Source: Escherichia coli
Lineage (GTDB): Bacteria; Pseudomonadota; Gammaproteobacteria; Enterobacterales; Enterobacteriaceae
Assembly (NCBI RefSeq): GCF_016903815.1
Contig: NZ_CP069973.1
DNA: 64,000 nt
Strand: one strand, 5' to 3'
The stretch's first letter is position 1. Every line of letters begins with the position of its first letter. Of this stretch, positions 60,881 through 61,237 are shown in pieces. Below the pieces are notes generated by a model, which searched no databases, was not told the origin of the DNA, and saw nothing but the letters and a program-made list of their open reading frames with translations. The translations under genes were made by a program, and so were the position numbers.

Positions 60881-61237
60881 CCAGCAACCAATGCCACCAG
60901 GGATTAAGCCCCCGCAACATTGCGTCTCACCGGAACCTTTCCGGCTTGCCGCTGATTTTACGATTGCTTTTTACCGTCAGCACCCGGCAATCTTCCTCAT
61001 TGCGCGATGCCTTCCAGCTTAATTTCTTTATTTGCAATAGTTGCAGTTCATATCCGAGCTGACTCCAGACTGGTAGTGAAATGCGCAATTTTGTAGAATT
61101 GCGCCTCCTCGCGACCTCCCCAGTGAATCTGTTGCCTCATTTTTTGCATACTGCGTATTCGACTTCTCCACCTGTTGCGCAAGAGAAACTGGGTTTATTC
61201 ATTTTTGCGAGGCCGACTTCTTTCTGGACAGGACTTT

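What the first reader, a model, noticed from the sequence alone, without database searches (positions are those of the whole stretch)
60900..61100. The yhjV-proximal ldr copy has a unique upstream region unlike the two repeat-derived copies
Upstream of copies 1 and 2 the sequence is the adjacent repeat unit (...gctgattctacggccatttttgttcgtcgaaatcc...), whereas copy 3 diverges after gccgctgatt into unique sequence. Promoter and leader control of the three toxin mRNAs may therefore differ.
Basis: seen in the sequence. Interest (0 to 1): 0.35.

Follow-up and report, generated by a model that had tools for sequence, protein, structure and literature searches.

The report
Edge of a tandem ldr/rdl array
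The third toxin gene copy sits at the edge of a known three-copy E. coli toxin-antitoxin repeat, so its upstream flank is the ordinary single-copy K-12 ldrD promoter region rather than another repeat unit; this is expected and already-known biology.

Summary
Between bcsG and yhjV lie three tandem LDR units (period 483/484 bp). Each carries a 35-aa Ldr toxin ORF on the minus strand and an Rdl antisense RNA on the plus strand. Copies 1 and 2 are preceded by the next unit. Copy 3 stops being repeat-grade after gccgctgatt (60948-60957).

"Unique" is only half right:
- The next ~100 nt (60964-61062) are a diverged homologue of the inter-unit spacer: 49% identity against 27% by chance.
- The stretch from 60964 to the yhjV start matches the K-12 ldrD-yhjV intergenic region at 271/274 positions. 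Copy 3 therefore carries the classical ldrD promoter region.
- That flank is single-copy in 5013 of 5426 complete E. coli genomes. About 60% of genomes have multi-copy arrays like this one.

The break falls on a -10-like hexamer (TAGAAT in copies 1 and 2, TAAAAT in copy 3) that is kept in every LDR type. The predicted start site, the 5' hairpin, the whole leader and the Rdl promoter lie inside the repeat. The copies therefore probably share start site, -10 and leader, and differ only in the -35/upstream part. No transcription start data could be retrieved, so any functional difference is untested. This is ordinary, known biology and of low interest.

The parts
57922..59601 (+). bcsG (cellulose phosphoethanolamine transferase), left flank of the array
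   Evidence: ORF; RefSeq annotation of identical or near-identical records
59602..60084 (-). LDR unit 1 (bcsG-proximal): terminator, ldr ORF, 5' UTR, rdl, -10 hexamer, inter-unit spacer
   Evidence: Direct-repeat families with 483/484 spacing; alignments
60085..60568 (-). LDR unit 2 (middle)
60569..61062 (-). LDR unit 3 (yhjV-proximal), including its diverged promoter-upstream part
59688..59795 (-). ldr copy 1 ORF, 35 aa plus stop (MTLAELGMAFWHDLAAPVIAGILASMIMNWLNKRK)
   Evidence: Pfam PF13940 Ldr_toxin, 89 bits against a cutoff of 27
60171..60278 (-). ldr copy 2 ORF, 35 aa plus stop
   Evidence: PF13940, 90.7 bits
60655..60762 (-). ldr copy 3 ORF, 35 aa plus stop
   Evidence: PF13940, 93.2 bits
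59844..59909 (+). rdl antisense RNA, copy 1
   Evidence: Rfam RF01813, 87 bits against a gathering score of 50
60327..60392 (+). rdl antisense RNA, copy 2
   Evidence: RF01813, 81.8 bits
60811..60876 (+). rdl antisense RNA, copy 3
   Evidence: RF01813, 81.7 bits
60776..60804 (+). Predicted Rdl promoter TTGTAA-17-TATTCT. The same 29-mer is at 59809-59837 and 60292-60320, so it lies inside the repeat.
   Evidence: the promoter assignment is inferred from its distance to the Rfam 5' end of Rdl
60578..60605 (-). ldr copy 3 intrinsic terminator stem (11 pairs) followed by a T-run. Equivalent stems are at 60094-60121 and 59611-59638.
60955..60960 (-). -10-like hexamer TAAAAT of ldr copy 3. It is TAGAAT at 59988-59993 and 60472-60477. 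It lies exactly at the point where repeat-grade identity ends.
   Evidence: conserved as TA[G/A][A/T]AT in all 24 distinct LDR promoter regions compared
60947..60950 (-). Predicted ldr copy 3 transcription start, 6-8 nt after the -10 hexamer. Equivalent positions are about 59981 and 60465.
   Evidence: Inference only. It gives a transcript of about 377 nt to the terminator, which fits the roughly 370-nt ldrD mRNA I recall from Kawano et al. 2002 (paper not held).
60929..60945 (-). 5'-proximal hairpin GCCGGAA-AGG-TTCCGGU of the predicted mRNA. Equivalent hairpins are at 59962-59978 and 60446-60462.
   Evidence: 97.9% of cells are paired across 14 distinct sequences, with one compensatory pair in E. 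whittamii; the covariation is weak.
60964..61062 (-). Diverged homologue of the inter-unit spacer, i.e. the -35 and upstream part of the terminal (K-12 ldrD-type) promoter region. It keeps the islands TGCAAC-TA-TTGCAA (61032-61045) and CTGGAAGGCAT (61007-61018).
59996..60093 (-). Inter-unit spacer, i.e. the promoter-upstream region of copy 1. The equivalent for copy 2 is 60480-60577. It starts right after the terminator of the upstream unit.
61063..61237 (.). Remaining ldr-yhjV intergenic DNA, with no similarity to the repeat. It contains the perfect palindrome GCGCAATT-N6-AATTGCGC at 61083-61104.
61238..62509 (+). yhjV (putative transporter), right flank of the array, transcribed divergently from ldr copy 3

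Best explanation
The locus is the chromosomal LDR-D array of E. coli: three head-to-tail ldr/rdl type I toxin-antitoxin units between bcsG and yhjV. Copy 3 is the last unit on the yhjV side.

What lies upstream of copy 3. Upstream of a shared -10 hexamer it has no neighbouring unit. It has the single-copy ldr-yhjV intergenic region instead. That region is the same DNA that drives the lone ldrD gene of K-12.

How the flank relates to the repeat. Its first ~100 nt are an old, 49%-identical relative of the inter-unit spacer. The ancestral unit therefore included this promoter region. The flank lies at the outer edge of the array. I infer that unequal crossing-over or gene conversion homogenises only the shared interior, which also carries RNA constraints on both strands. 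That would explain why identity drops abruptly at the transcribed/non-transcribed border.

Consequences. All three ldr mRNAs are predicted to start at the equivalent position, 6-8 nt after TAGAAT/TAAAAT. They then carry the same 5' hairpin and nearly the same leader, and are controlled by Rdl RNAs made from identical promoters. They differ in the weak -35/spacer and upstream DNA, and in context. Copies 1 and 2 lie about 100 bp behind a strong terminator. Copy 3 lies back to back with yhjV.

Shown here: the anatomy, the homologies and the population distribution. Inferred: the start site, the homogenisation mechanism and any expression difference.
For: Identity of the parts:
- Three Ldr_toxin ORFs.
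- Three rdlD matches above the Rfam gathering score.
- Three terminators.
- Repeat period 483/484.

Copy 3's flank is the K-12 ldrD region:
- 60964-61237 matches the K-12 ldrD-yhjV intergenic region at 271/274 positions, ungapped.
- The same terminal flank is found in strains with 1, 2, 3 and 4 copies, and in E. whittamii and Escherichia sp. E1V33.
- It occurs in 5013/5426 complete E. coli genomes, once each.
- The inter-unit spacer occurs in 3269/5426 genomes, at 6690 places, median 2 per genome.
- Three pairs at this locus in BL21(DE3) are already published (PMC5435950).

Diverged homology of the flank:
- 49% against 27 +/- 4% in shuffles, 0 of 10000 reaching the observed value. Identity is at chance level beyond -100.
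- Conserved islands are shared with the internal and LDR-A/B/C promoter regions.

Identity profile: upstream 49%, 5' UTR 94.5%, ORF 97%, 3' UTR 100% for copy 3 against copy 2. The same drop at the same point is seen between the ldrD and ldrB paralogues (41% against 85.5%).

Start site:
- The -10 hexamer is conserved in 24/24 distinct promoter regions.
- It is the best PWM candidate in every unit.
- The predicted 380-nt transcript is strongly structured (z = -6.7), with a hairpin starting at nt 5.

Homogenisation:
- Both internal spacers in this strain carry one -35-region variant, both in strain B carry another, and HCM-27C-1 has one of each.
- K-12 ldrD is the terminal promoter fused to the body of the bcsG-proximal copy.
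Against: - No experimental start-site data for ldrD or for the internal copies could be retrieved. Kawano 2002 and Thomason 2015 are not held, and the supplements searched had nothing.
- The promoter call is not significant from sequence alone. The consensus scan found no sigma-70 site. PWM scores of 8.2-8.6 lie within the shuffled range (mean 7.2, 95th percentile 10.7).
- The -35 matches are poor in all copies.
- Covariation support for the 5' hairpin is weak: one compensatory pair, with 35/500 shuffles as good.
- The roughly 370-nt mRNA length is from my memory of an abstract.
- Purifying selection alone, without gene conversion, could also give the sharp identity boundary.
Confidence: 0.8

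Rival explanations
1. Because copy 3 has a different upstream region, its promoter and its mRNA leader are controlled differently from copies 1 and 2, giving functionally distinct regulation of the three toxins.
For: - The -35/spacer and the 100 nt upstream differ strongly, at 49% identity.
- Copy 3 shares a divergent intergenic region with yhjV, whereas copies 1 and 2 follow a terminator.
- The leaders are not fully identical. Ten of 30 variable columns cluster in 21 nt at the Rdl 5' tail.
Against: - The leader lies entirely inside the repeat and is 94-96% identical between copies. Its variable patch has nothing to do with the flagged region.
- The -10 hexamer and the predicted start are shared.
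- Predicted promoter scores are about equal, 8.25 against 8.58.
- The family-wide conserved upstream islands are kept in copy 3's flank.
- No expression data were found.
Confidence: 0.25
2. The real ldr promoter lies further upstream, inside the divergent DNA. One candidate is ATGCAA-17-TATTCT, about 61 nt upstream of the anchor in the internal spacers. On this reading the mRNAs of copy 3 and copies 1/2 would have different 5' ends.
For: The PWM scan gives this site 7.08 in all internal spacers, close to the top score, and there is no counterpart in the terminal flank.
Against: - It is absent from the terminal flank, which is the only promoter region available to K-12's expressed ldrD.
- It would give a transcript of about 440 nt, not about 370 nt (from memory of Kawano 2002).
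- Sequence conservation across all LDR types starts at the TAGAAT hexamer, not upstream of it.
Confidence: 0.08
3. Copy 3's flank is unrelated DNA. The original duplication simply ended at gccgctgatt, or an insertion or replacement occurred there, and the internal spacer has a separate origin.
For: - The break is sharp, from over 94% to 49% within a few bases.
- The terminal, internal and LDR-A/B/C upstream regions are about equally distant from each other, at 41-49%.
Against: - The in-register, ungapped 49% identity over 100 nt was never reached in 10000 shuffles, and it stops where the internal spacer meets the upstream terminator.
- Islands are shared at the same distances from the -10 hexamer.
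Confidence: 0.07

Closest known systems
LDR-D (ldrD/rdlD) locus of E. coli K-12, between bcsG and yhjV (Kawano et al. 2002, as cited in PMC4147584)
   Same: - Same chromosomal position and flanking genes.
- The flank of copy 3 up to yhjV is 271/274 identical to K-12.
- The 5' UTR of window copy 1 is 200/200 identical to K-12 ldrD.
- Same Rdl RNA family.
   Different: K-12 has one unit and this window has three. K-12's unit is a fusion of the terminal promoter with a body of the bcsG-proximal type. The -10 hexamer of copy 3 here is TAAAAT instead of TAGAAT.
Three ldrD/rdlD pairs between bcsG and yhjV in E. coli BL21(DE3) (PMC5435950)
   Same: Same three-unit array at the same locus. Strain B has the same terminal flank and the same unit period.
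   Different: The internal spacers of strain B carry another variant of the ~30 nt before the -10 hexamer (GGATTCCGGAACAGAAAAACAGT, against GGATTTCGACGAACAAAAATGGC here).
LDR-A/B/C array of K-12 (ldrABC/rdlABC, between kdsA and chaA)
   Same: Tandem roughly 500-bp units with the same internal layout, a conserved TAG[A/T]AT hexamer, a 5' hairpin and an invariant 5' UTR block.
   Different: In that array the terminal copy (ldrC) keeps 88% identity to the internal copies over the 100 nt upstream. The terminal copy at the D locus keeps only 49%. The period is about 535 bp, and the ORFs are 68% identical to the D type.
ibs/sib tandem type I toxin-antitoxin repeats (PMC2943612)
   Same: Tandemly repeated toxin/antisense pairs in one intergenic region. 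The copies differ mainly in the antisense recognition region. Here the comparable feature is the variable patch at the Rdl 5' tail.
   Different: Different toxin and RNA families. Pair specificity has been tested for Sib/Ibs but not for Rdl/ldr.

Membership tests
Ldr/Rdl (LDR) type I toxin-antitoxin repeat | 35-aa hydrophobic Ldr toxin ORF | tested here: met
   Three ORFs match PF13940 full length, at 89-93 bits against a cutoff of 27. RefSeq annotates them as Ldr family toxins.
Ldr/Rdl (LDR) type I toxin-antitoxin repeat | Cis-encoded ~60-nt Rdl antisense RNA opposite the ldr 5' UTR | tested here: met
   Three RF01813 matches at 82-87 bits (gathering score 50), each 49 nt upstream of the ldr ATG on the opposite strand.
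Ldr/Rdl (LDR) type I toxin-antitoxin repeat | Long direct repeat of about 450-530 bp, often tandem | tested here: met
   Three units with a period of 483/484 bp and 92-100% identity in the transcribed part.
Ldr/Rdl (LDR) type I toxin-antitoxin repeat | Stable ldr mRNA of about 370 nt with a long 5' UTR, and a toxic product repressed by Rdl | not testable with these tools
   There is only a prediction: about 377 nt from the predicted start to the terminator, strongly structured at z = -6.7. No RNA or toxicity data are available here.
Sigma-70 promoter (for the ldr promoter of each copy) | -10 hexamer close to TATAAT, with A2 and T6 | tested here: met
   TAGAAT/TAAAAT match 5 of 6 positions and are conserved in 24/24 distinct LDR promoter regions.
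Sigma-70 promoter (for the ldr promoter of each copy) | -35 hexamer close to TTGACA at 16-18 bp | tested here: not met
   The best matches are GTGCTG (spacer 17) for the terminal copy and TTTCGA (spacer 16) for the internal copies, each 2-3 of 6. CTGAC[A/G] fits better but at a 14-bp spacing. There is no extended -10 TG. The consensus scan found no site.
Sigma-70 promoter (for the ldr promoter of each copy) | Mapped transcription start 6-8 nt downstream of the -10 hexamer | not testable with these tools
   No start-site data could be retrieved from the held papers or supplements.

The most novel reading that the evidence does not exclude
The internal and terminal LDR-D units have sub-functionalised. 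Different -35/upstream regions would put the toxin paralogues under different transcriptional inputs, with the terminal one possibly coupled to the divergent yhjV promoter. The hypervariable patch at the Rdl 5' tail would make each Rdl specific for its own ldr mRNA. The array would then be a set of independently controlled toxin-antitoxin pairs rather than redundant copies.
Probability: 0.2. Interest if true: 0.35.

Novelty: already known. Interest (0 to 1): 0.15.

Why it matters
It matters little beyond bookkeeping. It does clarify that the ldrD promoter studied in K-12 is the array-terminal promoter. It also shows that about 60% of complete E. coli genomes carry extra internal ldr copies whose promoter-upstream DNA is only about 50% identical to it and comes in at least two variants. 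Anyone extrapolating K-12 ldrD expression or regulation to other strains, including BL21, should treat the internal copies as untested. The sharp identity boundary at the -10 hexamer is a tidy example of an array-edge effect. It also gives an indirect pointer to where the ldr transcript starts.

Tried and rejected
- Literature hunt for a mapped ldrD start site. Kawano 2002 (both papers), Kawano 2012, Fozo 2008 and Thomason 2015 are not held. The supplements of PMC5435950 and PMC4161252 are not held. The supplements of PMC3415461, PMC4782308, PMC12133099, PMC7815308 and PMC6131387 contain no ldrD start site. PMC7815308 gave only the RdlD 3' end at 3,700,201/2.
- Consensus promoter scan: no sites.
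- My own PWM scan: the best candidates do not rise above shuffles, so the promoter cannot be called from sequence alone.
- Weak Rfam 'sok' matches on the ldr strand (24-30 bits against a gathering score of 59). I treated these as below threshold and did not use them.
- Covariation test of the 5' hairpin: the hairpin is almost invariant, so the test is inconclusive.
- Exact-match scan of one genome per species for a conserved LDR 22-mer. It returned only Escherichia, plus one 503-bp 'Bacillus' contig that is probably contamination. No distant outgroup was obtained for footprinting.
- CytR-site idea for the TGCAAC-N-GTTGCATT palindrome. This rests on memory only and was not tested.

Full report
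**What is at the coordinates**

The flagged stretch, 60900-61100, lies in the 1.6-kb gap between bcsG (ends at 59601, plus strand) and yhjV (ATG at 61238, plus strand). RefSeq annotation of identical records names both genes. The gap holds three head-to-tail repeat units with a period of 483/484 bp. Each unit contains:
- a 35-aa ORF on the minus strand (59688-59795, 60171-60278, 60655-60762). Each matches Pfam Ldr_toxin full length at 89-93 bits against a cutoff of 27;
- a plus-strand match to Rfam rdlD above the gathering score (59844-59909, 60327-60392, 60811-60876; 82-87 bits against 50);
- a strong minus-strand intrinsic terminator.

This is the LDR (ldr/rdl) type I toxin-antitoxin repeat. 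Because ldr is on the minus strand, 'upstream' of each toxin gene means higher coordinates.

**Check of the observation**

In sense orientation the three units align almost perfectly from the terminator up to CGTA[G/A]AATCAGCGG. Further upstream, copies 1 and 2 continue into the next unit and are 99% identical to each other, while copy 3 changes. Identity of copy 3 to copy 2 by segment:

| Segment | Identity |
|---|---|
| 3' UTR | 100% |
| ORF | 97% |
| 5' UTR | 94.5% |
| 100 nt upstream of the anchor | 49% |

'Unique' needs qualification. The in-register, ungapped 49% identity over 100 nt was never reached in 10000 shuffles (mean 27%, sd 4%). Beyond -100 it drops to 15-20%, which is where the internal spacers run into the terminator of the upstream unit. 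So 60964-61062 is a diverged homologue of the inter-unit spacer, not foreign DNA.

**What the flank is**

Window 60964-61237 is 271/274 identical, ungapped, to the K-12 MG1655 ldrD-yhjV intergenic region. The same terminal flank precedes the yhjV-proximal unit in every strain examined:
- K-12 (1 copy)
- ATCC 25922 (2 copies)
- strain B and HCM-27C-1 (3 copies each)
- O103 RM8385 (4 copies)
- E. whittamii and Escherichia sp. E1V33

A 121-nt probe from the flank hits 5013 of 5426 complete E. coli genomes, once each, at 95% identity or more. A probe from the inter-unit spacer hits 3269 genomes at 6690 places, with a median of two per genome (three copies) and a maximum of four. The three-copy state is thus the common one. 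[quoted passage not shown]

K-12's single ldrD looks like a collapsed array. Its upstream 100 nt equal strain B's copy 3 (100%). From +125 on, every informative site equals strain B's bcsG-proximal copy 1. Window copy 1 has a 5' UTR 200/200 identical to K-12 ldrD.

**Where the promoter probably is**

The divergence point falls on a -10-like hexamer. It is TAGAAT at 59988-59993 and 60472-60477, and TAAAAT at 60955-60960, all on the minus strand. In an alignment of 24 distinct LDR promoter regions, TA[G/A][A/T]ATC is kept in all of them. These regions comprise terminal D-type, two internal D-type variants and the LDR-A/B/C type, from six E. coli strains and two other Escherichia. The surrounding upstream DNA is only 41-49% identical between types.

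Four further points bear on the start site:
- Between the distant paralogues ldrD and ldrB, identity drops at the same point, from 85.5% in the 5' UTR to 41% upstream. This is what a transcribed/non-transcribed border would look like.
- A start 6-8 nt after the hexamer (about 60948) gives a transcript of about 377 nt to the terminator. From memory, the abstract of Kawano et al. 2002 reports a stable ldrD mRNA of about 370 nt. That paper is not held, so this is a recollection and not a checked citation.
- The predicted 380-nt RNA is strongly structured (-176 kcal/mol, z = -6.7) and begins with a hairpin at nt 5-21.
- The hairpin is paired in 97.9% of cells across 14 distinct sequences. E. whittamii has one compensatory A-U to G-C change, but covariation is too sparse to be decisive (35/500 shuffles as good).

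The caveats are real. The consensus scan finds no sigma-70 promoter. My PWM scores for the best candidates do not exceed shuffled sequence (mean 7.2, 95th percentile 10.7):

| Copy type | -35 | Spacer | -10 | Score |
|---|---|---|---|---|
| Terminal | GTGCTG | 17 | TAAAAT | 8.25 |
| Internal | TTTCGA | 16 | TAGAAT | 8.58 |

No published start site could be retrieved despite many look-ups.

If the start is where predicted, the following all lie inside the high-identity repeat: the start site, the -10 hexamer, the 5' hairpin, the whole ~185-nt leader, the Rdl gene and the predicted Rdl promoter. The Rdl promoter is TTGTAA-17-TATTCT, the identical 29-mer at 59809, 60292 and 60776. Leader control therefore does not differ because of the flagged region.

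What does differ is the weak -35/spacer region, the DNA further upstream and the context. Copies 1 and 2 sit about 100 bp behind an 11-bp-stem terminator. Copy 3 is back to back with yhjV.

Even so, the diverged flank retains the islands shared by LDR promoter regions:
- a GGAA-G block about 55 nt upstream of the -10 hexamer
- a TGCAA..TTGCA palindrome about 80 nt upstream
- an A-run just before the -10 hexamer (absent from the LDR-A/B/C type)

The internal spacers themselves come in at least two variants of the last ~30 nt before the -10 hexamer. Both internal spacers of this strain share one variant, both of strain B share the other, and HCM-27C-1 has one of each. This fits homogenisation within arrays.

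**Why the boundary is there (inference)**

The terminal flank is the outer edge of the array, with nothing homologous beyond it. Unequal crossing-over and gene conversion can keep the shared interior alike but cannot reach the outer flank. The interior is also constrained on both strands, by the ldr mRNA structure, the ORF and Rdl. The terminal, internal and A/B/C upstream regions are about equally distant from one another (41-49%), whereas the D-type transcribed regions are about 94% alike. This points to an old split of the promoter regions and continued homogenisation or selection of the transcribed part. In the K-12 A/B/C array the terminal copy (ldrC) still shares 88% identity upstream with the internal copies. 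The strong edge divergence is therefore a feature of the D locus, not of LDR arrays in general.

**Novelty and interest**

Everything here is a known system at its known locus, in its commonest copy-number state. The flagged flank is the classical K-12 ldrD promoter region. The one modestly useful point is that the internal copies, present in about 60% of complete genomes, have a promoter-upstream region about 50% different from the studied one, and nobody appears to have tested them. I rate interest at 0.15 and novelty as 'already known'.

**Side observation**

The real difference between the leaders lies elsewhere. Of the 30 variable columns among the three units, 10 fall in 21 nt at the Rdl 5' tail (60807-60827). 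Across 20 distinct D-type units, this is the most variable part of the whole transcript, and it sits next to a roughly 50-nt invariant block. That pattern resembles the pair-specific recognition regions of Sib/Ibs (PMC2943612) and could be tested.

Noticed in passing
window 60807-60827 (equivalents 59840-59860 and 60323-60343): There is a hypervariable patch at the Rdl 5' tail and the complementary part of the ldr 5' UTR. Ten of the 30 variable columns among the three units fall in these 21 nt. Across 20 distinct D-type units from 9 genomes, this is the most variable part of the transcript. It may make each Rdl specific for its own ldr mRNA, as in Sib/Ibs.
   Followed up: partly
window 60863-60912 (minus-strand sense GGGGGCTTAATCCCTGGTGGCATTGGTTGCTGGAGAGAGAAAACCCCCGC), and equivalents in copies 1 and 2: A roughly 50-nt block of the ldr 5' UTR shows almost no variation across all D-type units and is also conserved in the LDR-A/B/C type. 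Its role is unknown. It may be a key structural or translational-control element.
   Followed up: no
L001 (K-12 ldrD) compared with L003 (strain B array): K-12's single ldrD unit is a chimera. Its upstream 100 nt are identical to strain B's yhjV-proximal copy. All informative sites from +125 onward match strain B's bcsG-proximal copy. This indicates collapse of a multi-copy array by recombination within the first ~125 nt of the 5' UTR.
   Followed up: yes
window 61083-61104: A perfect palindrome GCGCAATT-N6-AATTGCGC lies in the ldr-yhjV intergenic region, 134-155 bp upstream of the yhjV ATG, and is also present in K-12. It could be a regulator site for yhjV or ldr.
   Followed up: no
window 60065-60078 and 60549-60562 (internal spacers); 61032-61045 (terminal flank): The palindrome TTGCAAC-C-GTTGCA(TT) in the internal spacers is retained as TTGCAAT-A-GTTGCA in the otherwise 49%-identical terminal flank. 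The internal version contains GTTGCATT, which I recall as the CytR recognition octamer. That octamer occurs only three times in the 64-kb window.
   Followed up: no
window 59688-59963, 60171-60437 and 60655-60897 (minus strand): The ldr reading frame stays open far into the 5' UTR in all three copies, giving in-frame ORFs of 91, 88 and 80 aa. This may relate to the proposed upstream ORF ldrX (PMC4147584).
   Followed up: no
L012 (NZ_JABWSY010000055.1, 503 bp, labelled Bacillus sp.): A 503-bp contig in a Bacillus assembly carries an E. coli LDR-D inter-unit spacer and 5' UTR. It is almost certainly contamination.
   Followed up: no
window 59988-59993, 60472-60477 and 60955-60960: The -10-like hexamer of the terminal copy is polymorphic between strains. 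It is TAAAAT here and in ATCC 25922 and O103, and TAGAAT in K-12, strain B and HCM-27C-1. All internal copies examined have TAGAAT.
   Followed up: partly
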